A DNA stretch of 64,000 bases from Bacilli bacterium (GTDB taxonomy: Bacteria > Bacillota_I > Bacilli_A > RF39 > UBA660), in contig JAEEMF010000040.1 of the NCBI GenBank assembly GCA_016283075.1, positions 470 through 64,469 of the forward strand, given 5' to 3'. A model generated the notes under the pieces. It searched no databases. It had not been told where the DNA came from and saw only the letters and a list, made by a program, of their open reading frames with translations. Each line of letters starts with the position of its first letter. Position 1 is the stretch's first letter. Position numbers and translations under genes: made by a program. This document shows, piece by piece, positions 6,190 to 37,706 of the stretch.

Positions 6190-7023
6190 ATGAAAAAGAT
6201 AAATAAAAGAAAACGTAATGGATTTACATTACTTGAATTACTTGCTGTAATACTTGTTCTTAGTATTATAGGATTAATAGCATTTGCGGCCGTTAATAAT
6301 TCAGTTAAATATGCTAGAAAGAAATCTGCTGAAACTTCAGCACATGGATATATATATGCTGTTAATAATCAAGTAGGGCTTTCTAGATTAGATAGTGATA
6401 CAGAAAATGATATATTAGATGGTACTAAGTTAGTGTCATCTTTAGAAGTTAAAATGGAAGGTAAAGCTCCTAATAGTGGACATGTTGTTATAACTAATGG
6501 TACTGTTTCTAAAGCGGAACTTATTATAGGAGAATACAAGATTACTTGTATTGAAGGTGAATGTACTACTAAGAAAGCTACATTCTTAGAATCAGTTGAA
6601 CCTGGTTTAATTGATTTAGAAAATGAGAAATTATTAGTATCATGGGATGATTTAGTTAATAAATATGGAATGAGTTTAACAGTAGGATATGGAGGAGCTA
6701 AAGCCCTTGCTGCTACTGGTTTAACTGGATTTGTTAAATTTCCACCAACTGCAACAGAAATATGGGGTACATGTTTTAGAAATAATAATAATATAACTGG
6801 TGCATATATTCCTTCTTCTGTTAAGAGAATAGGTGCAGAAGCATTTAATAAATCTCCGCTTAAAGTACTATATTTTGAAGATACATCTAATTGGTATGCT
6901 AAGTTATCTTCTGGTGATACTTTAGTAACAATTAAATCTCCAGAACATGTAGCTGATAAAATTAGTAGAAGAACAAGTAAGAATAGTTACCCAATGGTAG
7001 AGTGGTATAACACTTCTAAATAG
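6190..7023 (+). CDS. type IV pilin-like protein fused to BspA-type leucine-rich-repeat (LRR_5-like) module
   Basis: RNG|FTLLELLAVILVLSIIGLIAF prepilin motif. C-terminal YIPSSVKRIGAEAFNKSPLKVLYFED matches the IPxSVxxIGxxAF repeat signature. The protein ends YPMVEWYNTSK. Confidence 0.75.
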   Translation: MKKINKRKRNGFTLLELLAVILVLSIIGLIAFAAVNNSVKYARKKSAETSAHGYIYAVNNQVGLSRLDSDTENDILDGTKLVSSLEVKMEGKAPNSGHVVITNGTVSKAELIIGEYKITCIEGECTTKKATFLESVEPGLIDLENEKLLVSWDDLVNKYGMSLTVGYGGAKALAATGLTGFVKFPPTATEIWGTCFRNNNNITGAYIPSSVKRIGAEAFNKSPLKVLYFEDTSNWYAKLSSGDTLVTIKSPEHVADKISRRTSKNSYPMVEWYNTSK

Positions 7024-26828: not shown

Positions 26829-29087
26829 ATGAATAAAAAAATAGATGTTGCCAAGAATAATGAAAAAGGGATTATAGGACTTATTAGAAGTTGTATTATT
26901 ATACTACTAATTGGTTTAGTAGTAGGATTATCAACTCCTAAACTACTTAAAGATTTAAAATTTGGTCTAGATCTTCAAGGTGGATTTGAAATTTTATATC
27001 AAGTACAAAGTCTAGATGGTAGTGAAGTAACAAAAGATATGGTTACTAATACATATAAGACTATTTCTAAAAGAATAGATGCTTTAGGTGTTAGTGAACC
27101 AGAAATTATTGTTGAAGGAAATGATAGAATTCGTGTTCAATTAGCTGGTGTAACTGATGCTAAATCAGCTCGTAAAACATTAAGTTCTGTTGCAAGTTTA
27201 TCATTTAGAGATTCATCAGATAATCTACTTATGAGTAGTGATGTATTAAGAGCTGGTGGAGCTAAAATAGGTCAAGATAATAATGGTAGACCTGCTGTTG
27301 CTTTAACAATTGCTGATAACGAAACATTCTATAGAGTTACAGAAAGTATTAGTAATTCTGAAGATAAATTAATCGTTATTTGGTTAGATTATGAACCTGG
27401 TAAAAAGTATAGTAATGAAGCAGGTAAATGTGGTGGCGATAACTTAAATGGATGTTTAAGTGCTGCTACTGTAGGACAAGCTTTCTCAGGTGATGTTATT
27501 ATCCAAGGTAACTTTACTCAAGAAGAAGTTGCTGAACTTGTTAGTTTAATTAACTCTGGTTCTCTTCCAACTAAATTAAACGAAATTTCATCAAAGACTG
27601 TATCTGCATCATTTGGTGAAAACTCACTTGAACTTACTGCTAAAGCAGGATTAGTTGGTGTAGGATTAATTATGCTTGTTATGATTGTTTTATACCGTTT
27701 CTCAGGACTAGTTGCTAGTATTGGTATTGGTATTTATGCATTCTTAACATTCTTAACATTCTGGTTATTTGGTGGAGTTCTTACTTTACCTGGTATCGCA
27801 GCTTTAGTTATTGGTATAGGTATGGCTGTTGACTCAACAATTATTACATTTGCAAGAGTTAGAGATGAACTAGATAATGGTTCTAAACTTACAAATGCTT
27901 GTAAAAATGGTAATAAAAATTCATTTATGGCAATCTTTGATTCAAACTTTACAACACTTTTAGTAGCAGTAATTCTATTTACATTTGGTGAAAGTACTGT
28001 TAAAGGATTTGCAACAATGCTTATTATAAGTACTATTGTTACAATGCTTGTTATGGTTCTTTTAACAAGAATACTTTTAGGATTATTTGTTAAAACTGGA
28101 TTATTTGATAATCATTTAAATTTATTTATTGGTTATAAGAAGAAAAAAGTTAAAAAACAAATTAATTTTGTTAAAGTTAGTAAAATTGCAATTATCTATT
28201 TAGTAGTACTTACTATAGTAGGTGTTACATCATTATTTACTAATAAATTAACACTTGGTATTGATTTTAAAGGTGGTTCATCTATAAGTGTTACAAGTAC
28301 TGAAGCTTTACAATTAAGTGATATTGAAAAAGATATTAAAGACTTAGGTTATAAAGTATATGACACTGAAAAGATTGATGAAAGTAATGTTATTATTAAA
28401 GTAGAAGAATCATTTAGTGAAGATGAAGTTCTTAAAGTTGAAAAACTTTTTGAAGAAGAATATAATGCTAAAACTGAAATTGGTGTAGTATCTAACTTAG
28501 TTAAAAAAGATTTAGTTAGAAATGCTATTTATTCAGTAATCTTTGCTGCAATTGGTATTATTTTATATGTATCAGTAAGATTTAGATTTAGTTATGCAGT
28601 ATCTGCAATTATAGCGCTTCTACATGATGTATTTGCAATTGTTATTCTATTTAGTATTTGTAAGATTGAAGTTACAAGTATCTTTATAGCAGCACTTCTA
28701 TCTATTATAGGATACTCTATTAATGATACTATTGTTTCATTCGATCGTATTAGAGAAAACTTACTAAAGAAAGAAAAAATTAAATCAGAAGATGATTTAA
28801 AAGAAGTAGTAAATACAAGTTTAAATCAAACTCTTGGCAGATCAATAGTTACTACTATTACTACTTTATGTCCAGTTGTATGTTTAATACTTCTTGGTTC
28901 TCATGATATTATTAACTTTAATATTGCCTTACTAGTTGGTTTAGTAATGGGTACTTTATCATCTATCTTTATAGCATGCCAAATTTGGTTCTTAATTGAT
29001 AAAAGAAATATCGGTAAACCAATTAAGAAAAAATGGTATGAAGAAGAAGATACTAAAAAAGTAAAAAAGGTTAAAAAAAGTAAATAA
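26829..29087 (+). CDS. secDF: protein translocase subunit SecDF (fused)
   Basis: 752 aa with two 6-TM halves separated by a periplasmic-type domain. The LKFGLDLQGG and LGIDFKGG starts are typical of SecD and SecF. Confidence 0.9.
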   Translation: MNKKIDVAKNNEKGIIGLIRSCIIILLIGLVVGLSTPKLLKDLKFGLDLQGGFEILYQVQSLDGSEVTKDMVTNTYKTISKRIDALGVSEPEIIVEGNDRIRVQLAGVTDAKSARKTLSSVASLSFRDSSDNLLMSSDVLRAGGAKIGQDNNGRPAVALTIADNETFYRVTESISNSEDKLIVIWLDYEPGKKYSNEAGKCGGDNLNGCLSAATVGQAFSGDVIIQGNFTQEEVAELVSLINSGSLPTKLNEISSKTVSASFGENSLELTAKAGLVGVGLIMLVMIVLYRFSGLVASIGIGIYAFLTFLTFWLFGGVLTLPGIAALVIGIGMAVDSTIITFARVRDELDNGSKLTNACKNGNKNSFMAIFDSNFTTLLVAVILFTFGESTVKGFATMLIISTIVTMLVMVLLTRILLGLFVKTGLFDNHLNLFIGYKKKKVKKQINFVKVSKIAIIYLVVLTIVGVTSLFTNKLTLGIDFKGGSSISVTSTEALQLSDIEKDIKDLGYKVYDTEKIDESNVIIKVEESFSEDEVLKVEKLFEEEYNAKTEIGVVSNLVKKDLVRNAIYSVIFAAIGIILYVSVRFRFSYAVSAIIALLHDVFAIVILFSICKIEVTSIFIAALLSIIGYSINDTIVSFDRIRENLLKKEKIKSEDDLKEVVNTSLNQTLGRSIVTTITTLCPVVCLILLGSHDIINFNIALLVGLVMGTLSSIFIACQIWFLIDKRNIGKPIKKKWYEEEDTKKVKKVKKSK

Positions 29088-29180: not shown

Positions 29181-31352
29181 ATGAGGAAAGATAAACCAAA
29201 TATTACTTTTGATGAGTTAAGAGAAAAACTTCTTACTTATATTACTGATGAAAAAGAACTTGACCTTATTAGAAGTGCATATATGTTTGCGTTTGAAAAA
29301 CATTTTGGTGTAAAAAGACTTACTGGAGAAGATTATATAATCCATCCTTTAAACGTTGCGTATATTTTAACTGAAATAAAAGCTGATGCTCCTAGTATTT
29401 GTGCTGCACTTATGCATGATGTAATAGAGGACTGTGATGTTACTAAAGAAGAAATAGCAGAGAAGTTTTCTAGTGAAATAGCTCTTCTTGTTGATGGGGT
29501 TACTAAGATTAATAGATTAAACTTTAGTGGTGATAATGAAGCTATGATAGCAAATCATCGTAAGATCTTAGTAGGACTTTCTGAAGATGTTCGTGTTATT
29601 ATCATTAAACTAGCTGATAGACTTCATAATATGAGAACTCTTTGGGTACTACCTGAAAAGAAACAAAAACTTAAAGCTAAAGAGACACTCGAAATACTTA
29701 CACCAATTGCTCACCGTTTAGGTATAGGTGGTATTAAAAGTGAACTAGAAGATTTATCACTTAGATACTATAAACCTGATATTTATTTTGAAATTGTTGA
29801 AAAATTAAATCAAAGTAAAGCAGAAAGAGAATCACTTGTTAGTTCTATGATGAGTGCTGTATCAGAAACACTTAATGAACATGGTATAGTACATGAAATT
29901 AAGGGTAGAGCTAAAAGTATCTATAGTATTTATAAAAAACTTGATAAAGGTAAGAAATTTAATGAAATATATGATTTACTTGCTATGAGAGTATTTGTTA
30001 ATACGGAAAATGAATGTTATCAAGCACTTGGTATAATTCATTCTAAATATAAACCTATTCCTCGTAGATTTAAGGATTATATAGCTATGCCTAAAACAAA
30101 TATGTATCAGTCTTTACATACGACTGTATTTGGTGAAGGTGGACAGCTTTATGAAATACAAATTAGAACTTATGAGATGGACCAAGTAGCAGAACTAGGT
30201 ATTGCTTCTCACTGGTCATATAAAGAAAAAGGTTCTAATGTTAAAGCTAATATGCAAAATGCTATGGAACAAAAACTTCAGTTTTTTAGAAATATTATGG
30301 ATTTAAAAGCTGAAGAAACTAATGATGAAGATTTCGTTAATGCTGCTGTAGAAGAAGTATTAAATGAAAATATTTATGTATTTACTCCTAAGGGAGATGT
30401 AATAGAACTTCCTGATGGATCTACTCCAATAGATTTTGCTTATAGAGTTCACTCTGGCGTAGGAGATAAGATGGTAGGAGCAATTGTTAATAATAATATT
30501 GTTCCACTAGATTATAAACTTCAAAATAACGATATTGTAAAAATTAATACTAATAAAAATAGTGCTGGTCCTTCAAGAGAATGGATTAATATGGCATTTA
30601 CTTCATCTGCTAAAAATAAGATAAGAGGATTCTTTAATAAAATAGATAAAGAAGATTATCAAAAGAAGGGTGAAGAAAAACTTAAAGAAGAACTTAGAAA
30701 GAAGAAAATTCCTTTTGATGAATTCTTAAGTAGTAATAATTTAGATAATATTTTAAAAGAATTTAAACTTGCTAGTATAGAAGAATTCTATATTAGTATA
30801 GGTAATGGTAAATATACTCCTGGAGCAATAATTAACTTTATAAATGGAGATAATGAATCTAAAGCTGATTTAATCTTAAAGAAAGCTACTAATAGTAGTG
30901 TTTCAAGTGTACAAAGTAAAAATGATATTATTGTAGAAGGAATAGATAAGATTAAAGTAAATATTGCTTCTTGTTGTAAACCAGTTAAAGGAGATAGAAT
31001 TGTCGGATATATTACAAAAGGTAATGGTATTACTGTTCATAGAATGGTATGTCCTAATATATCTGATTTAGATGAAAGACTAGTTGAAGTTAAATGGAAT
31101 GAAAGTTTAAATAAGAAATATCCAACTTCAATATTAGTAAGATCTGAAGATAATAAGAATGTACTTCTTGATATTATTAGTAAAACCGCTAATACAGATA
31201 TTACTGTTCAAAGTATTAACTCTTTAAATAGTAAGGGAGACTTCTTATTTGAAATAACTATCTTAGTAGATTCTAAAGAAAAACTTGTTAAATTTATGAA
31301 TGACCTACATATGATACCTAGTGTTATTGAAGTAGAAAGATTTATTAAATAA
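29181..31352 (+). CDS. rel: bifunctional (p)ppGpp synthetase/hydrolase Rel
   Basis: HD hydrolase domain (HPLNVA...MHDVIED), synthetase domain (GRAKSIYSIYKKL, YQSLHTTV), and TGS and ACT regions. Confidence 0.95.
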   Translation: MRKDKPNITFDELREKLLTYITDEKELDLIRSAYMFAFEKHFGVKRLTGEDYIIHPLNVAYILTEIKADAPSICAALMHDVIEDCDVTKEEIAEKFSSEIALLVDGVTKINRLNFSGDNEAMIANHRKILVGLSEDVRVIIIKLADRLHNMRTLWVLPEKKQKLKAKETLEILTPIAHRLGIGGIKSELEDLSLRYYKPDIYFEIVEKLNQSKAERESLVSSMMSAVSETLNEHGIVHEIKGRAKSIYSIYKKLDKGKKFNEIYDLLAMRVFVNTENECYQALGIIHSKYKPIPRRFKDYIAMPKTNMYQSLHTTVFGEGGQLYEIQIRTYEMDQVAELGIASHWSYKEKGSNVKANMQNAMEQKLQFFRNIMDLKAEETNDEDFVNAAVEEVLNENIYVFTPKGDVIELPDGSTPIDFAYRVHSGVGDKMVGAIVNNNIVPLDYKLQNNDIVKINTNKNSAGPSREWINMAFTSSAKNKIRGFFNKIDKEDYQKKGEEKLKEELRKKKIPFDEFLSSNNLDNILKEFKLASIEEFYISIGNGKYTPGAIINFINGDNESKADLILKKATNSSVSSVQSKNDIIVEGIDKIKVNIASCCKPVKGDRIVGYITKGNGITVHRMVCPNISDLDERLVEVKWNESLNKKYPTSILVRSEDNKNVLLDIISKTANTDITVQSINSLNSKGDFLFEITILVDSKEKLVKFMNDLHMIPSVIEVERFIK

Positions 31353-31798
31353 TGAGAGTAATACTTCAAAGAAGTAGAAAATCTAGTGTATCAGTAGATG
31401 ATAAGGTAGTAGGTAAAATAGATTCAGGTTTAGTAGTTTTAGTAGGTTTTACTTTTAATGATAATGAAGAAATAATTGATAAAATGATTAATAAAGTAAT
31501 AAACCTAAGAATCTTTAATGATGAAAATGGTGTTATGAATAAATCTCTTCTAGATGTAAATGGAGAAATACTTTCTATATCTCAGTTTACTTTATATGCG
31601 GATACTAGAAAAGGTAGAAGACCTAGTTATGTAAATGCACTAGGAGGAGAAGAAGCTACTAAATTATATGATATCTTTAATGATAAATTAAGAAGTTTAG
31701 GATTGCATGTTGAGACTGGAATATTTGGAGCGGATATGCAGGTATCCATCCATAATGATGGTCCAACTACAATTGCAATTGATAGTGAAAATTTATAA
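31352..31798 (+). CDS. dtd: D-aminoacyl-tRNA deacylase
   Basis: MRVILQR..., SQFTLYADTRKGRRPSY, NDGPTT. 148 aa. Confidence 0.95.
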   Translation: MRVILQRSRKSSVSVDDKVVGKIDSGLVVLVGFTFNDNEEIIDKMINKVINLRIFNDENGVMNKSLLDVNGEILSISQFTLYADTRKGRRPSYVNALGGEEATKLYDIFNDKLRSLGLHVETGIFGADMQVSIHNDGPTTIAIDSENL

Positions 31799-31800
31799 AA

Positions 31801-31829
31801 TTAGTCAAATATTATTGACTAATTTTTTT
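31801..31829 (+). terminator. dtd intrinsic terminator
   Basis: TTAGTCAA-atatta-TTGACTAA hairpin followed by T7. Confidence 0.8.
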
Positions 31830-31849
31830 ATATACTTTATACTACTATT

Positions 31850-32044
31850 TAATATTTAGTAGTTTAAAAAGTTATTTATTAGGCATAGAGATAATGTGGC
31901 TGGTGTAAACATAACTAATGGTAGCTGTATATGGATCTACATAAAAAAATAATCGTATTTCTGCGTTAAAGAATAGAGTTAGATAAAATCTATAAAGTAA
32001 GGTGGTACCGCGTTCTAGGACGCCCTTATGCTATAGATTTTTTG
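31850..32044 (+). promoter_or_regulatory. T-box leader (tRNA-sensing riboswitch)
   Basis: Promoter TTGACT(31815)-17-TATACT(31838). Stem I elements AGAGA and GGUGUAA (GNUGNRA). T-box core AAGGUGGUACCGCG at 31999-32012 forms the canonical antiterminator TAAGG[UGGUACC]GCG-loop-CGCCCUUA. The outer helix AUCUAUA/UAUAGAU is followed by U6. Confidence 0.8.
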
Positions 32045-32063
32045 CGTTTTAAGGAGGGTAATC

Positions 32064-34046
32064 ATGGAAGAAGAATATGTTGGAACTTTATTTCAAAGAA
32101 TTAGATTAAGTGAAACATTATTTGTATATAAGCCAGTTAGTGCTTTAGATGGTTTTTTAATGACTATTTCTACTGATGATGCTAATATTCCAGATGACCC
32201 TAATGAAGATGAAAATGGATATTACTTTTTTACAGCAAATGGTTATTCTTATACACTACTTAGTAATGCTAATCAGTTTGATGAAGAATATGTAGTAGGT
32301 AACTTAAAACCAATAACTGAATTTGTAGATACAAGTGATGAAGTAGATTTAGATGAAGCATTAAATATATATTCAAATGAAACAGATAATGAAGTATACT
32401 TTGGTTCTACTGAAGATAATGCTAAATTAAAAATATTTAAAATAGAAAAAGACGAACTTATAGATGGTAATATGAGTTTTATTTCTTTTAATACTAGAAG
32501 TATATTTGATAATATCTTTAAAGAATTAGATACTAATAAAGAGAAAAAAATAGATGTAAAACTTGTTAAAGAGTTATTTCATATAGCAGAAAGTAATGTC
32601 TGCGCTTCAAAAGAATTAATTGGGTTAACAGCAACTACTCATGATTTTGAAGGAATACTTTCTTTCCTACATGATAAAGCAGAAGTTCTTACTAAATCAT
32701 TTTCAAATGATGAAGATATTAAAAACACATATGAATTCTTCGAAAACTATCTTACATCTTTTAGAAATATAAAAGATAATACATCTAAAGAAGTAGTAGC
32801 TCTTTATATAGAATTAATTAAACACTGTATTGATACTCATAAAGAAGATATAGATAAGCATATTGAGAATATTTGTAGATATTCTAACTATGAAAAGATA
32901 AAAGATGCTTTTGATGAATTAGAAGAATTTATTAGAAGTCATGAAAAGAGAACATATTCAGGTTTATATGAAAGATTAAATGAAGTTGTAATAGGACAAG
33001 AAGATGCTAAAAGAAATGTACTTGTATCTATCTTTAAAAGTGATAATGATGTTATAAATAAAAACAACTTATTACTAGTTGGTCCTTCTGGATCAGGTAA
33101 AACTTTAATAGCAGAAACATGTGCTGAATATTTAGACATTCCTTCTATAGTAGTTGATTCAACAACACTTTCTACTCCTGGTTATGTAGGACAAGATGTT
33201 GATCAGCAACTAGTTAGGCTTTTAGAAGCAGCAGGAGGAGACTTAGAAAAAGCCCAGAGGGGTATTATTATCTTTGATGAAATAGATAAAAAAGGATCAA
33301 AAGATAATGATGATGTATCTGGTAGAGGAGTTTTAAACTGCTTATTAGGATTTATAGAAGGAAGAAAATATCAACTTGTCTATAGAAATAGACTTGTTGA
33401 ATTTGATACTTCTAAACTTAAAATAATTATGACAGGTGCTTTTGCTAAAGTAGCAGAAGAACTAGTACTTGAAAATAAAAAAACTCATTATGGATTTATA
33501 TCAATAGATTCAAAAAATGAAGAAGTAAAAGTATCTTTATCTGATAAAGATATTACTACTAAAGGTGATATGCCTCCTGAATTTATTGGAAGAGTATTAA
33601 TAGTAAACTTAAGTAAATTAACTAAAGATAATGCTAAAGAATTAATGTATTATTCAGAAAGAAGTATTTTAAAAGATATATTTAATCTTTATATAAAATA
33701 TGATACAAAAGTATATTTTACTGAAGAATTTGTTGATGGTTTTATAAATTCTCTTTTTGATAATAAAGAAGATGAATTTGGTGCAAGAACTATTAATAAA
33801 AAAATATCTGAAGTACTTCTTTCAGCAGAATTCGAATTAATACTATCTTTAGATAAAGAAAATGGATACAAAGAAGTAGTAGTAGGAATAGAAGCACTTA
33901 CAGATCATAATAAAATATTATTTATATATGAAGATGGTACTTCAAAAGAACTTGGAGATATTATAAAAGAAGAGGAAGAAAAGAAGGCTAAAGCAAAAGC
34001 TATGAGAGATATACCAGAATTTATAAAAAGGAAGGTGAACCAGTAG
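32064..34046 (+). CDS. ClpX-family AAA+ ATPase paralog A, with a novel ~300-aa N-terminal region and no zinc-binding domain
   Basis: VIGQEDAKRNV; Walker A LLLVGPSGSGKTLIAE; pore-1 loop TPGYVGQDV; Walker B GIIIFDEIDK; DVSGRGVLNCLLGFIEG; DTSKLKIIMTGAFA; PPEFIGRV; GARTINK. All are collinear with E. coli ClpX motifs. Confidence 0.85.
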   Translation: MEEEYVGTLFQRIRLSETLFVYKPVSALDGFLMTISTDDANIPDDPNEDENGYYFFTANGYSYTLLSNANQFDEEYVVGNLKPITEFVDTSDEVDLDEALNIYSNETDNEVYFGSTEDNAKLKIFKIEKDELIDGNMSFISFNTRSIFDNIFKELDTNKEKKIDVKLVKELFHIAESNVCASKELIGLTATTHDFEGILSFLHDKAEVLTKSFSNDEDIKNTYEFFENYLTSFRNIKDNTSKEVVALYIELIKHCIDTHKEDIDKHIENICRYSNYEKIKDAFDELEEFIRSHEKRTYSGLYERLNEVVIGQEDAKRNVLVSIFKSDNDVINKNNLLLVGPSGSGKTLIAETCAEYLDIPSIVVDSTTLSTPGYVGQDVDQQLVRLLEAAGGDLEKAQRGIIIFDEIDKKGSKDNDDVSGRGVLNCLLGFIEGRKYQLVYRNRLVEFDTSKLKIIMTGAFAKVAEELVLENKKTHYGFISIDSKNEEVKVSLSDKDITTKGDMPPEFIGRVLIVNLSKLTKDNAKELMYYSERSILKDIFNLYIKYDTKVYFTEEFVDGFINSLFDNKEDEFGARTINKKISEVLLSAEFELILSLDKENGYKEVVVGIEALTDHNKILFIYEDGTSKELGDIIKEEEEKKAKAKAMRDIPEFIKRKVNQ

Positions 34047-36040
34047 TGGCAAAAAAAGAAGAAAGATATGCAATCCTTTATGATATAAATGCTGATGATG
34101 AATTCTATAGATATACACCAGTAGATGCTATAGAAGGTGAAATTATAAAAGAAGTAAGGAATGTATTTATAGATGGAGAGTGGGTTGATAAAGAAGTAGA
34201 TGTATTTGTTGCGTATGATAAAGATTTACATATTTATGAAAGATACGTAACTATGAAACACTCTGCAGAGCAAGATATGTGTGTAGGTAATATTATCACA
34301 CGTAAAGAACTTATCGAAAAATATCCTGATGTTAAAATACCACCAGGTGGCATTGGTCTTCAAGCGGAACTTCTTCATGCATTCTTCGAGGATTATAGAG
34401 ACTGTACTATTTGTAAACAAAGAGATTATTTTGATGATGAAGATGATTATGAAGAATCAACTTTTAAGTCTGACTGGTTACTTCAAGATCCTGAAAAGAT
34501 AACTTTAATTCGTTTACAAACTGCATGGGAATGTTCTTTTGATACAATTTCTGCATGTGAAGATGATGAAAAAATTTCTGAAGTATATGATTATCTAGTA
34601 GATATTTTAGATAGTATGTGTACTTATATTATGTGTTGTAAAGAACTTAGTGCAGTAGATAGAGAAAGTTATACAAATGCTTGCGATAATATAGCAAAAA
34701 GAATTATATATGCTAGTGATTTAACAGGGGTTCTTGAACAGGATAAAAAAATTGCTATGGAATTAAATAAAGAATTTAGAGCGTTATTTGATGATATAGC
34801 TGTTAAAACAGTAGAAGCTGCATCTTATATATTAAAAGAACCTAAGAAAGAAACAGCTACTGTTAAACCTTATAAAGATATAAATACTCTTTTAGGAAAT
34901 AGTAAGAAAACAAGACAAGAAATACTTGATGAACTTGATAAAACTGTTATTGGTCATGATGATGCTAAAATAAGATTACTTTCAGTAATTGAAAGTAACT
35001 CGACTATAGAACAAAAGAATAATATTGATGCAGTACTTTTAATAGGACCTTCTGGATGTGGTAAAACTCTTTTAGTAGAAACATTATCTAAGGTAATGGA
35101 TAAACCATTTGCATTAATTGATACTTTAGCTTTAACACCTGCTGGATATAAAGGTGTTGATCTTGAAAATGTATTAGCATTACAACTTTTAAGAAGTGCT
35201 AAAGGTGATGTTAAGAAAGCTGAAAGAGGAGTAGTATTCTTTGATGAATTTGATAAGAAAGCATCTACATCTGATAAAGAGTCAAATTTTGATAAAAGAA
35301 CTATTGATCAACTTTTAACATATATGTCTGGAACTAAATGTACTGTTGAGTATAATGGTAGAGATACTGAAGTAGATACAAGTTTTATTACATTTGTATT
35401 TGGTGGTTCATTTGCTGATATGATTAAGGCTATGATGGATAATAAAGAGAATGATGAATCATATAAAAGAACTACTATTGGTTTTATAAAAGATACTGCT
35501 AAAGAGATAAAAGATATTAATGAATATGATTTAAAATATCCAGAAAAAATTGAAGACGAGGATTTAGCAGTTCATGGTCATATGCGACCTGAAATGATTA
35601 ATAGAATTCCAACTAAGATAGTTATGCAAGGTGAAAATAGAATATCACTTAAAGATATTTTATTATATTCAACTGTTAGTCCTTTAGTATTTGAAGAAAA
35701 ACGTATTAACGCTAAGGGAGCTAATCTTGCTGTACTAGAAGAATTTATAGATCCTTTTGTAGAATCTGCATTTGGTAGAAAACAGTGTGGAAGATCTTTA
35801 AAAAATGGATTATTTCAAATAACAAGTCTTATTAATGATGTACTTGATGAATATCCAAGTAGATTTAAATATGCTGTACTTAATAAAGAATGCGTAAGTA
35901 ATCCTAGAGATGCTTTATTAATAGATTATGAAAATAATCGCTATACAGTAGGAGAACTTAAAGATGAAATTAAGAAAGCTAAAGAAGCTAAACCAAAAGA
36001 AAGTGTAATTAAAACTTATGCTTTTATACCTGAAAATTAG
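34046..36040 (+). CDS. ClpX-family AAA+ ATPase paralog B, more divergent, with a novel N-terminal region homologous to that of paralog A
   Basis: GTG start overlaps the upstream TAG (TAGTG) behind a GGAAGGTGA RBS. VIGHDDAKIRL; Walker A VLLIGPSGCGKTLLVE; pore loop PAGYKGVDL; Walker B GVVFFDEFDK; ITFVFGGSFA; TTIGF; RPEMINRIP; CGRSLKN. Confidence 0.85.
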   Translation: MAKKEERYAILYDINADDEFYRYTPVDAIEGEIIKEVRNVFIDGEWVDKEVDVFVAYDKDLHIYERYVTMKHSAEQDMCVGNIITRKELIEKYPDVKIPPGGIGLQAELLHAFFEDYRDCTICKQRDYFDDEDDYEESTFKSDWLLQDPEKITLIRLQTAWECSFDTISACEDDEKISEVYDYLVDILDSMCTYIMCCKELSAVDRESYTNACDNIAKRIIYASDLTGVLEQDKKIAMELNKEFRALFDDIAVKTVEAASYILKEPKKETATVKPYKDINTLLGNSKKTRQEILDELDKTVIGHDDAKIRLLSVIESNSTIEQKNNIDAVLLIGPSGCGKTLLVETLSKVMDKPFALIDTLALTPAGYKGVDLENVLALQLLRSAKGDVKKAERGVVFFDEFDKKASTSDKESNFDKRTIDQLLTYMSGTKCTVEYNGRDTEVDTSFITFVFGGSFADMIKAMMDNKENDESYKRTTIGFIKDTAKEIKDINEYDLKYPEKIEDEDLAVHGHMRPEMINRIPTKIVMQGENRISLKDILLYSTVSPLVFEEKRINAKGANLAVLEEFIDPFVESAFGRKQCGRSLKNGLFQITSLINDVLDEYPSRFKYAVLNKECVSNPRDALLIDYENNRYTVGELKDEIKKAKEAKPKESVIKTYAFIPEN

Positions 36041-36041
36041 G

Positions 36042-36070
36042 TTGACTTAATTAAAAAAAATAACTATAAT
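36042..36070 (+). promoter_or_regulatory. consensus-like sigma-A promoter between the ATPase pair and hisS
   Basis: TTGACT (36042-36047), an exact 17-nt spacer, then TATAAT (36065-36070). Confidence 0.6.
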
Positions 36071-36104
36071 TTATATGTAAATTATGTTATATAATTATTA
36101 CTTT

Positions 36105-36152
36105 AGTCTATGAAGTAAGGCTATATACCTTAGTTTATAGACTTTTGTTTTT
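36105..36152 (+). terminator. strong hairpin plus U-tract immediately upstream of hisS; a partial copy of the T-box terminator region
   Basis: AGTCTATGAAGTAAGG-ctatata-CCTTAGTTTATAGACT forms a 16-position stem with one mismatch, followed by TTTTGTTTTT. Both arms match the arms flanking the T-box core at 31987-32038. Confidence 0.75.
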
Positions 36153-36168
36153 AGAAAGAAGGAATATT

Positions 36169-37446
36169 ATGCAAAAACCTAAGGGAACATATGATGTATT
36201 TGGTGAAAGAGGAAAGAAAGAATTATATATTAGAGGATTAATGGAAACATTAATGAATAAATATAATTATGAGTATGTAGATACTCCTATCTTTGAAGCA
36301 AGTGAATTATTCCATAGAGGTGTAGGGGAAACTACTGATATCGTTACTAAAGAAACATATGACTTTGTAGATCGTGGAGAAAGAAACATGACTTTAAGAC
36401 CAGAAGGTACTGCTGGTGTAGTAAGAAGTTTTGTAGAAAACAAAATGTATGCTAGAGAATCTATGCCTGTTAAAGTATGGTACTTTGGACCAATGTTTAG
36501 ATACGAAAGACCACAATCTGGTAGATATAGACAATTCAAACAATTTGGTGTTGAAGTGTTTGGATCAGAAGATGCTTTAGTAGATGCAGAAGTAATTAGT
36601 ATTCCTGTAAATTTATATAAAATACTTGGTTTAAAAGGAATTAAAGTAAATATAAATTCACTAGGAGATAAAGAATCTAGAGAAAACTATAGAGAAGCTT
36701 TAATTAAACACTTTGAACCAGTAATCGATACATTATGTGAAGATTGTAAAGAAAGATTTAAAAAGAATCCTTTAAGAATCTTAGATTGTAAGATAGATGC
36801 AGATAAAGAAATAATGAAAACTGCACCTACTACAATTGATTACTTAAATGACGAAAGTAGAACACATTTTGAAAATGTTAAAAAATACTTAGAAGCACTT
36901 GGCATTGATTATGTAGTAAATCCAAGAGTTGTAAGAGGACTTGATTATTACACTCACACAGTATTTGAAGTAGAAGCAGATATTCCATCATTTGGAGCAC
37001 AAAATGTACTTTGTGGTGGAGGAAGATATAATGGTCTTGTTGAACAAGTAGGTGGGCCTAGTACAAATGGTGTAGGTTTTGCTCTTGGTTTTGAAAGATT
37101 AATTAATGCTTTAGAAGCTGAAAATATTGAACTACCATATGAAAAAGAAATAGATGCTTATGTAATACCAATGAGTGATAATGAAAAAGCATATGGATTT
37201 GATGTACTTCAAACACTTAGAATGTCAGGATTTAATGCTGATATAGATTACATGAGTCGTAAGATAGGCGGAAACTTTAAACAAGCTGATAGATTAAATT
37301 CTAAGTTTGTAATTATTATCGGTGAAGAAGAAACTAAATCTAATATTTTAACAATTAAAAATAATCGTACTAAAGAAGAATATAAAGTAAGCAAAGAACT
37401 TGTTATTGATTTCTTTGATGATAATTTAGAAAAAGAAGAACACTAA
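36169..37446 (+). CDS. hisS: histidine--tRNA ligase
   Basis: Class II aaRS motifs (MTLRPEGTAGVVR, FRYERPQSGRYRQFKQFG, GGGRYNGL). Start at 36169 follows a GAAGGAA RBS. Confidence 0.95.
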   Translation: MQKPKGTYDVFGERGKKELYIRGLMETLMNKYNYEYVDTPIFEASELFHRGVGETTDIVTKETYDFVDRGERNMTLRPEGTAGVVRSFVENKMYARESMPVKVWYFGPMFRYERPQSGRYRQFKQFGVEVFGSEDALVDAEVISIPVNLYKILGLKGIKVNINSLGDKESRENYREALIKHFEPVIDTLCEDCKERFKKNPLRILDCKIDADKEIMKTAPTTIDYLNDESRTHFENVKKYLEALGIDYVVNPRVVRGLDYYTHTVFEVEADIPSFGAQNVLCGGGRYNGLVEQVGGPSTNGVGFALGFERLINALEAENIELPYEKEIDAYVIPMSDNEKAYGFDVLQTLRMSGFNADIDYMSRKIGGNFKQADRLNSKFVIIIGEEETKSNILTIKNNRTKEEYKVSKELVIDFFDDNLEKEEH

Positions 37447-37468
37447 GAGATACCTAGTATCTCTTTTT
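37447..37468 (+). terminator. hisS intrinsic terminator
   Basis: GAGATAC-cta-GTATCTC followed by T5, directly after the stop codon. Confidence 0.8.
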
Positions 37469-37529
37469 CTTTACACTCATACTTGTAAAGTCTCTTGGAA
37501 TAGATATATACATATGTTATAATATAATT

Positions 37530-37706
37530 GACTAAAAGATATGGTTGGAATTATTTGAAAAACCTACTAAAATAACGTATAGGGAATCTAATTTATATAT
37601 GGTGTTGAAAGCTTAACTTCGATTAAGAATCCTAAAGTATATAATGTGATACCCACCTGGGAGATCAGGTTTTATCGTTATGCCGCCGATTTTTTGGTCT
37701 TTTTTT
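37530..37706 (+). ncRNA. candidate 6S RNA (SsrS-like), about 177 nt
   Basis: Own promoter TTGGAA(37495)-17 nt containing TG-TATAAT(37518). The 5' end GACTAAAAGAT pairs with the 3' end ATTTTTTGGTC (11 bp). Further pairs are GGTTGG/CCGCC and AAAACCT/AGGTTTT, with an asymmetric central loop and a terminal arm TATAGGGAATCTAAT/ATTAAGAATCCTAAAGTATA, followed by a U-run. Its position between hisS and tcdA corresponds to B. subtilis 6S-1 (aspS-yrvM intergenic region). Confidence 0.4.

What the first reader, a model, noticed from the sequence alone, without database searches (positions are those of the whole stretch)
36042..36171. The 3' end of the T-box leader is duplicated on both sides of the ATPase cassette; hisS is left behind a promoter that runs straight into a strong terminator
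I aligned 31987-32066 with 36105-36171 by eye.
- The left hairpin arm AATCTATAAAGTAAGG versus AGTCTATGAAGTAAGG matches at 14 of 16 positions.
- The right arm CCTTATGCTATAGAT versus CCTTAGTTTATAGAC matches at 11 of 15 positions.
- Similarity continues through the U-tract (TTTTTTGCGTTTT vs TTTTGTTTTT) and the RBS, up to the ATG.
- In the hisS-proximal copy the 21-nt T-box core (TGGTACCGCG...CGC) is replaced by the 7-nt loop CTATATA. This converts the switch into a plain 16-position hairpin terminator.

The two ATPase genes are therefore bracketed by direct repeats of the leader tail, which looks like a footprint of how they were inserted. Functionally, a near-consensus promoter (TTGACT-17-TATAAT, 36042-36070) sits only about 35 nt upstream of that terminator, and there is no room for a promoter between the terminator and the hisS RBS. 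An essential aaRS gene therefore appears to depend on read-through of a terminator that has lost its tRNA-sensing element. aspS, the usual hisS partner in Firmicutes, is also absent here.
Basis: seen in the sequence. Interest (0 to 1): 0.66.

Follow-up and report, generated by a model that had tools for sequence, protein, structure and literature searches.

The report
Decayed T-box leader upstream of hisS
The hairpin in front of the histidyl-tRNA synthetase gene is what remains of a tRNA-sensing T-box riboswitch: it lost its sensor through two internal deletions but kept its promoter and terminator, so it is not a scar left by insertion of the neighbouring ATPase genes.

Summary
A near-consensus promoter (36042-36070) is followed 34 nt later by a stable hairpin with a U-tract (36105-36152, about -18 kcal/mol), then directly by the hisS ribosome-binding site. 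The hairpin arms resemble the terminator arms of the T-box at 31853-32041.

The insertion-footprint reading does not hold. In the closest relatives (L001, L031; hisS 77-78% identical), complete T-box leaders sit both in front of the AAA+ genes and in front of hisS. The 130-nt hisS leader of the window aligns colinearly with their 264-nt hisS T-box leader. Promoter, first ~35 nt, terminator arms, U-tract and RBS are kept. About 105 nt (distal stem I to stem III) and 10-14 nt (T-box core) are deleted.

That ancestral T-box reads Asp (GAC) and normally serves a hisS-aspS operon. aspS is not in this window.

The relic recurs in two other assemblies of the species and changes about ten times more slowly than synonymous sites. 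hisS is under strong purifying selection.

Most likely the relic is a constitutive, leaky terminator. It ends the T-box-controlled ClpX-like ATPase operon and damps hisS expression. Termination efficiency is untested.

A side finding may be more interesting: in this clade, ClpX-like AAA+ genes carry T-boxes with differing specifiers.

The parts
31801..31829 (+). Terminator-like hairpin after dtd (TTAGTCAA/TTGACTAA plus T7). Its 3' arm is the -35 box of the T-box promoter.
   Evidence: Read from the sequence. The promoter hexamer starts at 31815.
31815..31843 (+). Promoter of the intact T-box leader (TTGACT-17-TATACT).
   Evidence: 10 of 12. The -35 and -10 columns are invariant across 11 related leaders (A1).
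31853..32044 (+). Intact 'ATPase-type' T-box leader. It has the stem I platform (AGAGA / GGUGUAA), the T-box core UGGUACCGCG (32003-12), terminator arms at 31987-32002 and 32024-32038, and a U-tract. It has no K-turn and no stem II. The specifier loop is atypical: the covariance model places AUG+G at 31931-34, with GGA or GAU as alternatives.
   Evidence: Rfam E = 2.5e-13, 62.5 bits, below gathering score 93. Clade HMM 125 bits. Alignment A1. Folds.
32064..34046 (+). AAA1, a ClpX-like AAA+ ATPase of 660 aa. It has Walker A GPSGSGKT, pore loop GYVG, Walker B FDEID, and YGF at the IGF-loop position. The N-terminal region is new: a beta-rich domain (1-130) followed by a long helical region, with no ClpX zinc finger.
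   Evidence: Pfam and NCBIfam, PDB alignment, structure model pLDDT 76 and Foldseek hits to ClpX with TM about 0.8.
34046..36040 (+). AAA2, a second ClpX-like AAA+ ATPase of 664 aa (GPSGCGKT, GYKG, FDEFD, IGF). Its start overlaps the AAA1 stop. It is 33% identical to AAA1 in the AAA module.
36042..36070 (+). Promoter of the decayed hisS leader (TTGACT-17-TATAAT). It is orthologous to the promoter of the hisS T-box in L001 and L031.
   Evidence: 11 of 12. Colinear alignment.
36071..36104 (+). 34-nt leader remnant. It aligns with the first ~35 nt of the relatives' T-box leader (the 5' strand of lower stem I). The deletion of about 105 nt lies at its 3' end.
36105..36152 (+). Relic terminator: a 15-bp hairpin (36105-36143) with a 1x1 G/G mismatch, the 7-nt loop CTATATA in place of the T-box core, and the U-tract UUUGUUUUU (36144-36152).
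   Evidence: Folds. Orthology. No Rfam match at E <= 10.
36153..36171 (+). hisS RBS (AGAAAGAAGGAA) and ATG, matching L001 in 18 of 19 positions.
36169..37446 (+). hisS, 425 aa, intact. dN/dS is 0.07 against the conspecific L122.
37445..37465 (+). Terminator-like hairpin after hisS (-9.1 kcal/mol).

Best explanation
Window 36042-36168 is a decayed T-box leader.

Shown by comparison. The ancestor had an Asp-specific (GAC) T-box with its own promoter in front of a hisS-aspS operon. Paralogous T-box leaders stood in front of ClpX-like AAA+ genes upstream of it. In this species aspS is no longer behind hisS. The hisS leader lost about 105 nt (distal stem I to stem III) and the 10-14 nt T-box core, so it can no longer bind tRNA or form an antiterminator. 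Promoter, terminator hairpin, U-tract and RBS remain.

Inferred. The element now works as a fixed, tRNA-independent intrinsic terminator with two roles. It ends transcripts of the T-box-controlled AAA1-AAA2 operon, which shields hisS from that starvation response. It also passes a constant fraction of the transcripts that start at the strong promoter just upstream, and of read-through from the ATPase operon. hisS is therefore expressed constitutively at a damped level.
For: - Colinear alignment of the 130-nt leader with the 264-nt hisS T-box leaders of L001 and L031. Identity is 74% over aligned columns, and the gaps fall exactly on the sensing parts.
- T-boxes are confirmed in the relatives by Rfam at E = 1e-15 to 1e-18. 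Their specifier is GAC followed by a purine, with UGGC or UGGU in the core.
- The same T-box family precedes aspS, or a 438-aa class II Asp/Asn-type synthetase, wherever hisS lacks a T-box.
- aspS is absent from the window.
- The relic is identical in L081 and differs from L122 by one substitution and one indel in 128 nt. Synonymous divergence is 0.12-0.15 in the flanking genes, so about 15 changes would be expected (Poisson P about 4e-5).
- hisS dN/dS is 0.07, so the gene is in use.
- The hairpin is as stable as intact T-box terminators.
- In L001 and L031 only about 10 nt separate the AAA+ stop codon from the hisS T-box promoter. The hisS leader terminator is therefore already the only terminator for the upstream gene.
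Against: - No transcript data exist, so termination efficiency and transcription start sites are unknown.
- A hairpin of -18 kcal/mol with a good U-tract could terminate most transcripts, which sits awkwardly with an essential gene.
- Other relatives that lost the hisS T-box have the ordinary order of terminator, then promoter, then hisS (L002, L027, L029). The order seen here is therefore not the usual end state.
- The conservation argument rests on strains of a single species.
- A second hisS elsewhere in the genome cannot be excluded.
Confidence: 0.62

Rival explanations
1. Insertion footprint: the ATPase cassette was inserted into the 3' end of a single hisS T-box leader and duplicated the leader tail as direct repeats.
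For: The two tails resemble each other and flank the cassette.
Against: - Relatives have complete T-box leaders with promoters at both positions.
- The two window copies belong to different leader subtypes, each shared with the relatives.
- The hisS-proximal copy keeps its own promoter and the start of stem I, which a tail duplication would not produce.
Confidence: 0.04
2. Regulated attenuator: the hairpin terminates efficiently, and hisS expression depends on an unknown factor that suppresses termination. Candidates are an RNA-binding protein, a ribosome translating a short leader ORF, or a competing fold of the 34-nt leader.
For: - The order promoter, short leader, terminator, gene is the classic attenuator layout.
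- The whole leader, including spacer and loop, is conserved within the species.
- A second promoter-hairpin-gene arrangement with the same 16-nt promoter spacer occurs in L133.
- A 9-codon ORF (MLYNYYFSL, from about 36085) ends inside the left arm.
Against: - The leader ORF has no Shine-Dalgarno sequence and no His codons.
- The only alternative pairing found (UUACUU with AAGUAA) is about 6 A-U-rich pairs, against -18 kcal/mol for the terminator.
- The MFE and centroid folds keep the terminator.
- There is no Rfam match and no candidate regulator gene nearby.
Confidence: 0.12
3. Neutral wreck on its way out: the relic has no role, and hisS is adequately served by another promoter or another hisS copy.
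For: T-box loss in front of hisS is common in this clade. Small genomes often lose cis-regulatory RNAs (PMC4779614).
Against: - The leader changes about ten times more slowly than synonymous sites.
- hisS is under strong purifying selection.
- There is no space for another promoter, and no better promoter candidate was found.
Confidence: 0.15
4. Chance resemblance between two unrelated AT-rich terminators.
For: The pairwise alignment alone is not significant.
Against: Positional orthology and colinear alignment with the relatives' T-box leaders, including promoter, arms, U-tract and RBS.
Confidence: 0.02

Closest known systems
T-box leader (RF00230) of hisS-aspS operons in Bacillota
   Same: Same genomic position (directly upstream of hisS), same promoter, and same terminator arms, U-tract and RBS as the intact hisS T-boxes of L001 and L031. 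It descends from such a leader.
   Different: It lacks the stem I platform, specifier loop, stem III and T-box core. It cannot bind tRNA or form the antiterminator, and Rfam finds nothing there. In this clade the intact leader reads GAC (Asp), not a His codon. A study of S. aureus labels the hisS-aspS T-box as histidine (PMC7927825).
T-box spread by duplication and insertion in front of other genes, and divergence to new specificity (Wels et al. 2008, PMC2494555)
   Same: The leaders in front of the AAA+ genes and in front of hisS or aspS form one closely related family (A1). Specifiers differ among the copies.
   Different: The recipient genes here are ClpX-like or SpoVK-like AAA+ ATPases. 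They are not synthetases, biosynthetic enzymes or transporters. One copy has decayed rather than diverged.
Loss of conserved cis-regulatory RNAs in reduced genomes (PMC4779614)
   Same: A riboswitch-type leader has lost function in a small, AT-rich genome of an uncultured gut Bacilli lineage.
   Different: The loss is partial. The expression platform (promoter and terminator) is retained and conserved, leaving a promoter that faces a terminator.
ClpX (ATP-dependent Clp protease ATP-binding subunit)
   Same: AAA1 and AAA2 share the ClpX AAA+ module fold (TM about 0.8), Walker motifs, a GYVG-type pore loop and an IGF-type loop.
   Different: There is no N-terminal zinc-binding domain. Instead there is a new N-terminal region of about 290 aa. 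NCBIfam scores are 180 and 155 bits against a cut-off of 359. The genes are fast evolving, with dN/dS of 0.30-0.44.

Membership tests
T-box leader (RF00230): element at 36042-36168 | Stem I with specifier loop and distal tRNA-elbow platform (AGAGA / GGUGNRA) | tested here: not met
   Deleted: about 105 nt are missing relative to L001 and L031. The clade HMM finds no hit here at E < 1e-3.
T-box leader (RF00230): element at 36042-36168 | T-box core (UGGNACC bulge) able to form an antiterminator that competes with the terminator | tested here: not met
   The core is replaced by the 7-nt loop CTATATA. There is no Rfam match at E <= 10.
T-box leader (RF00230): element at 36042-36168 | Terminator hairpin plus U-tract immediately upstream of the regulated gene | tested here: met
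   15-bp hairpin at -17.8 kcal/mol followed by UUUGUUUUU, orthologous to the T-box terminators of relatives.
Intrinsic (factor-independent) terminator: 36105-36152 | Stable stem-loop directly followed by a U-rich tract on the transcribed strand | tested here: met
   The simple scanner did not list it.
Intrinsic (factor-independent) terminator: 36105-36152 | RNA 3' ends and measurable termination at the U-tract | not testable with these tools
   Needs Term-seq, RNA-seq or in vitro transcription.
T-box leader (RF00230): element at 31853-32044 | Match to the Rfam covariance model at its gathering score | tested here: inconclusive
   62.5 bits against a gathering score of 93, but E = 2.5e-13. Related leaders in relatives score 65-90 bits because the K-turn and stem II are absent.
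T-box leader (RF00230): element at 31853-32044 | T-box core in an antiterminator that excludes the terminator; stem I platform | tested here: met
   AAGG-UGGUACC-GCG...CGC-CCUU and AGAGA / GGUGUAA are present.
T-box leader (RF00230): element at 31853-32044 | Assignable specifier codon followed by a purine, with a UGGN that matches the tRNA discriminator | tested here: inconclusive
   The covariance model places AUG+G with UGGU, which fits tRNA-Met A73. However, the S-turn motifs are degenerate (GUA for GAA, AGUU for AGUA). Helix-based alignment to relatives gives GGA or GAU instead.
ClpX: AAA1 and AAA2 | AAA+ module with Walker A/B, pore-1 loop GYVG and IGF loop for ClpP docking | tested here: met
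   AAA1 has GYVG and YGF. AAA2 has GYKG and IGF. G-F is invariant in 17 family members.
ClpX: AAA1 and AAA2 | N-terminal C4 zinc-binding domain; equivalog-level similarity | tested here: not met
   No zf-C4_ClpX hit in Pfam. NCBIfam ClpX gives 180 and 155 bits against a cut-off of 359.

The most novel reading that the evidence does not exclude
In this lineage of uncultured gut Bacilli, ClpX-like (and SpoVK-like) AAA+ unfoldases have been recruited into the T-box regulon. Each carries a copy of the Asp-type synthetase leader, and the specifiers have diverged: GAC in L031, L124 and L132; AAC twice in L001; apparently UGC in L002; and AUG in this window.

Starvation for a particular amino acid would then switch on a particular unfoldase, perhaps to feed ClpP and recycle amino acids.

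The hisS relic terminator is kept because it is the boundary between this starvation-induced operon and a housekeeping synthetase gene.
Probability: 0.3. Interest if true: 0.72.

Novelty: new variant of a known kind. Interest (0 to 1): 0.42.

Why it matters
This is a clear natural example of how a riboswitch dies. The sensor went first, through two clean internal deletions. The expression platform was kept and is conserved, which leaves an essential synthetase gene behind a promoter that faces a terminator. The decay coincides with aspS, the gene the Asp-specific sensor served, no longer following hisS, which suggests a cause.

Practically, such relics will be missed by covariance models, and a T-box that actually controls ATPase genes can be annotated as a hisS T-box.

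The wider pattern is that T-box leaders with different specifiers sit in front of ClpX-like unfoldases. If confirmed, it would extend the T-box regulon from synthesis and uptake of amino acids to proteolysis.

Tried and rejected
- A pattern scan of metagenome contigs for the relic hairpin (TCTATRAAGTAAGG-N4-12-CCTTA) gave 40 hits. None lies next to hisS. They are chance matches, apart from two unrelated short T-boxes.
- A blind pairwise alignment of the two window segments is not significant on its own.
- I looked for a promoter inside or after the hairpin and found none.
- A leader-peptide idea (MLYNYYFSL, stop codon in the left arm) was rejected: no Shine-Dalgarno sequence and no His codons.
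- An alternative antiterminator fold of the 34-nt leader is too weak.
- A defence-system reading of AAA1 and AAA2 was rejected: PADLOC gives only generic P-loop matches.
- Literature on the specifier of hisS-aspS T-boxes was not decisive. One paper labels the S. aureus case as histidine (PMC7927825), and the 2008 survey by Vitreschak et al. is not held.
- No paper was found that links T-boxes with ClpX or AAA+ genes.
- Whether L124 (T-box, ClpX-like gene, Asp/Asn-type synthetase; same sample as L122) belongs to the same genome as the window could not be settled. GC content is 24.5% against 27.8%.
- The fold search of the AAA1 model matched only ClpX AAA+ modules, so the N-terminal domain remains unassigned.

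Full report
**Locus**

The region reads as follows:
- secDF (26829-29087)
- relA (29181-31352)
- dtd (31352-31798)
- T-box leader (31853-32044)
- AAA1 (32064-34046)
- AAA2 (34046-36040)
- a 128-nt intergenic region
- hisS (36169-37446)
- 6S RNA (37526-37704)
- a ThiF-family gene

The closest genomes are uncultured gut Bacilli MAGs, some labelled Tenericutes. Their hisS is at most 78% identical to the window's.

**Check of the observation**

- The arms match in 14 of 16 and 11 of 15 positions.
- The T-box core is replaced by CTATATA.
- TTGACT-17-TATAAT lies at 36042-36070 and is the best promoter match in the 6 kb scanned.
- The hairpin 36105-36143 with the U-tract to 36152 folds at -17.8 kcal/mol (z = -3.8). 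The terminator after hisS folds at -9.1, and intact T-box terminators fold at -20 to -22.
- Only the RBS fits between the U-tract and the ATG.

As a blind alignment the resemblance is not significant. The right-arm match also follows from the left-arm match, because both elements are hairpins. Relatives were therefore needed to decide whether the similarity reflects homology.

**What the relatives show**

I fetched 80 hisS loci with 10-kb flanks and mapped the window's proteins and T-box motifs on them.

In the two closest relatives the space between dtd and hisS holds AAA+ genes, and each gene has its own complete T-box leader with its own promoter:
- L031: dtd, AI-2E transporter, T-box, ClpX-like gene (786 aa), T-box, hisS, a class II Asp/Asn-type synthetase.
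- L001: dtd, AI-2E transporter, an LRR surface protein, T-box, ClpX-like gene (783 aa), T-box, SpoVK-like gene (657 aa), T-box, hisS, aspS.

All these leaders, the window's T-box, and hisS T-boxes of more distant relatives align as one family (A1). They share an invariant TTGACT...TATA.T promoter, the stem I platform, stem III, the arms TCTATAAA.TAAGG / CCTTA..TTATAGA, and the T-box core.

Two subtypes differ in the tail:
- Leaders in front of AAA+ genes end in TTTTTGCGT.TTTA-GGAGG. The window's T-box is of this type.
- Leaders in front of hisS end in CTTTTTATATTAAAAAG(A/G)AAGAAGGTATA.TATG.

**The hisS-proximal element is a relic**

The window's 130-nt hisS leader aligns colinearly with the 264-nt hisS leaders of L001 and L031, at 74% identity over aligned columns.
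- Kept: the promoter, the first ~35 nt (the 5' strand of lower stem I), both terminator arms (15 of 16 positions on the left arm), the U-tract and the RBS (18 of 19 positions).
- Missing: a block of 104-106 nt running from the AGAGA region of stem I through stem III, and 10-14 nt that held the T-box core.

Rfam finds nothing in 35950-36260 even at E = 10.

This element is therefore not a tail duplicated when the ATPase genes were inserted. It is a second, older T-box that lost its sensor.

**Why the T-box may have decayed**

In the intact hisS leaders the specifier position holds GAC followed by a purine, with UGGC or UGGU in the core. This is seen in the covariance-model alignments and by eye in L003, L007, L009, L010, L015, L018, L020 and L026. 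L009 (GACG) and L020 (GACAA) exclude a CAC reading.

The sensor is therefore Asp-specific and fits a hisS-aspS operon. Where hisS has no T-box (L005, L008, L011, L013, L014, L017, L019, L023, L028, L039), the same T-box family sits directly in front of aspS or a 438-aa Asp/Asn-type synthetase.

In the window nothing aspS-like follows hisS or lies anywhere in the 64 kb. hisS runs straight into the 6S RNA gene.

An Asp sensor that controls only hisS has no obvious use, so its decay is unsurprising (inference).

**Is the relic in use?**

- The same sequence occurs in two other assemblies. L081 is identical.
- L122 differs by one substitution and one indel in 128 nt, both upstream of the -10 box.
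- Against L122, synonymous divergence is 0.12 in hisS and 0.15 in AAA2, so about 15 changes would be expected in 128 neutral sites (Poisson P about 4e-5).
- The leader is thus as conserved as the intact T-box leader (4 changes in 265 nt) and the 6S region.
- hisS has dN/dS of 0.07, so it is a working gene and must be transcribed through the hairpin.

This is evidence from a single species, so it is suggestive rather than conclusive.

**Most likely mechanism**

In L001 and L031 the AAA+ stop codon is about 10 nt from the hisS T-box promoter. The hisS leader terminator is therefore already the only terminator for the upstream gene.

In the window the relic still has that role for the T-box-controlled AAA1-AAA2 operon. 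Without an antiterminator it should terminate a fixed fraction of all transcripts, including those from its own near-consensus promoter. The result would be constitutive, damped hisS expression that is insulated from the ATPase operon's starvation response.

The anatomy and the descent are shown. The efficiency of termination and the positions of transcript ends are inferred.

The rivals cannot be excluded without RNA data. They are a regulated attenuator with an unknown factor, and a neutral wreck.

Relatives that lost the hisS T-box completely have the ordinary order of terminator, then promoter, then hisS (L002, L027, L029). The window may therefore represent an intermediate stage.

**The ATPases and their T-boxes**

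AAA1 and AAA2 are distant ClpX relatives.
- NCBIfam ClpX scores are E = 5e-53 and 2.5e-45, but 180 and 155 bits against a cut-off of 359.
- The AAA1 model matches ClpX with TM about 0.8.
- AAA1 has a GYVG pore loop and AAA2 has GYKG. AAA1 has YGF and AAA2 has IGF at the ClpP-docking loop. G-F is invariant in the family.
- Neither has the ClpX zinc finger. Both have a new N-terminal region of about 290 aa.
- They evolve quickly, with dN/dS of 0.30 and 0.44.

T-box leaders precede such genes in the window, L122, L123, L001, L031, L002, L124 and L132. In L124 and L132 a GAC T-box precedes a ClpX-like gene followed by an Asp/Asn-type synthetase. More distant homologues (P0013, P0016, P0019) have no T-box.

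Specifiers differ between copies:
- GAC in L031, L124 and L132
- AAC twice in L001
- UGC+G in L002
- AUG+G in the window, as placed by the covariance model

The window's specifier loop is atypical, and GGA or GAU cannot be excluded.

Spread of T-boxes by duplication, insertion in front of other genes, and change of specificity is a described mode of T-box evolution (PMC2494555). I found no paper reporting AAA+ unfoldases as targets.

**Verdict**

The evolutionary reading as an insertion footprint is wrong. The element is a decayed paralogous T-box. As a finding it is a good but modest example of riboswitch decay. The T-box-controlled ClpX-like genes are the more novel lead.

Noticed in passing
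window 32064-36040; L001 5028-9658; L031 7372-9732; L002 1125-3608; L124 6001-7992; L132 2896-4881: ClpX-like (and one SpoVK/CbbX-like) AAA+ genes are each preceded by a T-box of the Asp-type synthetase leader family. Specifiers differ between copies (GAC, AAC, AAC, UGC?, AUG?). No paper linking T-boxes to AAA+ unfoldases was found.
   Followed up: partly
L124 5789-9319 and L132 2684-6208: An operon of T-box (GAC), ClpX-like ATPase (663 or 661 aa) and a 437-aa class II Asp/Asn-type synthetase. L124 comes from the same sample as L122. It might be where this organism's aspS went, but the GC content differs (24.5% against 27.8%).
   Followed up: partly
L133 985-1103: A promoter whose 16-nt spacer AATTAAAAAAAATAAC is identical to that of the window's relic promoter. 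It is followed by a strong hairpin (arms GGCTATAA / TTATAGGCC) and TTTTTGCTTTTTT, directly upstream of a SpoVK-like plus ClpX-like gene pair next to hisS. This looks like a second, independent T-box relic.
   Followed up: partly
L012 about 6330-6493: The hisS leader contains GAAGATGACTAAAAC, which resembles the specifier region of the intact leaders (GAAUGACACUAAAAC). It also has a small hairpin with a U-run before the RBS, but no T-box core. This is possibly a third decayed copy.
   Followed up: no
window 31801-31829: The terminator-like hairpin after dtd (TTAGTCAA/TTGACTAA plus T7) uses the -35 box TTGACT of the T-box promoter as its 3' arm.
   Followed up: no
window 37526-37704: A 6S RNA gene (76.8 bits) lies directly after hisS and just before the ThiF-family gene. 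In L001, L031 and L002, aspS and other genes lie between hisS and 6S, so 1.5-3 kb is missing here.
   Followed up: partly
window 32064-36040 versus L122 8001-11986: AAA1 and AAA2 have dN/dS of 0.30 and 0.44 between strains that are about 98% identical elsewhere. Neighbouring housekeeping genes have 0.04-0.13. Selection on the ATPases is relaxed or diversifying.
   Followed up: partly
all T-boxes of alignment A1 (window 31853-32044, L001, L031, L002 and others): This clade's T-box leaders lack the K-turn at the base of stem I and all of stem II. That is why they score 62-90 bits, below Rfam's gathering score of 93, and are missed by a default scan.
   Followed up: partly
L001 2111-4738: A BspA-type leucine-rich-repeat, Ig-like surface protein with an N-terminal methylation (pilin-type) motif lies between the AI-2E transporter gene and the first T-box. 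The dtd-hisS gap is a variable region across relatives, from 0.4 to 9 kb.
   Followed up: no
L006 7952-8139: A T-box of this family (114 bits) has no ORF of 100 aa or more starting within 200 nt downstream. hisS, 1.9 kb further on, is preceded by a long hairpin without a U-tract.
   Followed up: no
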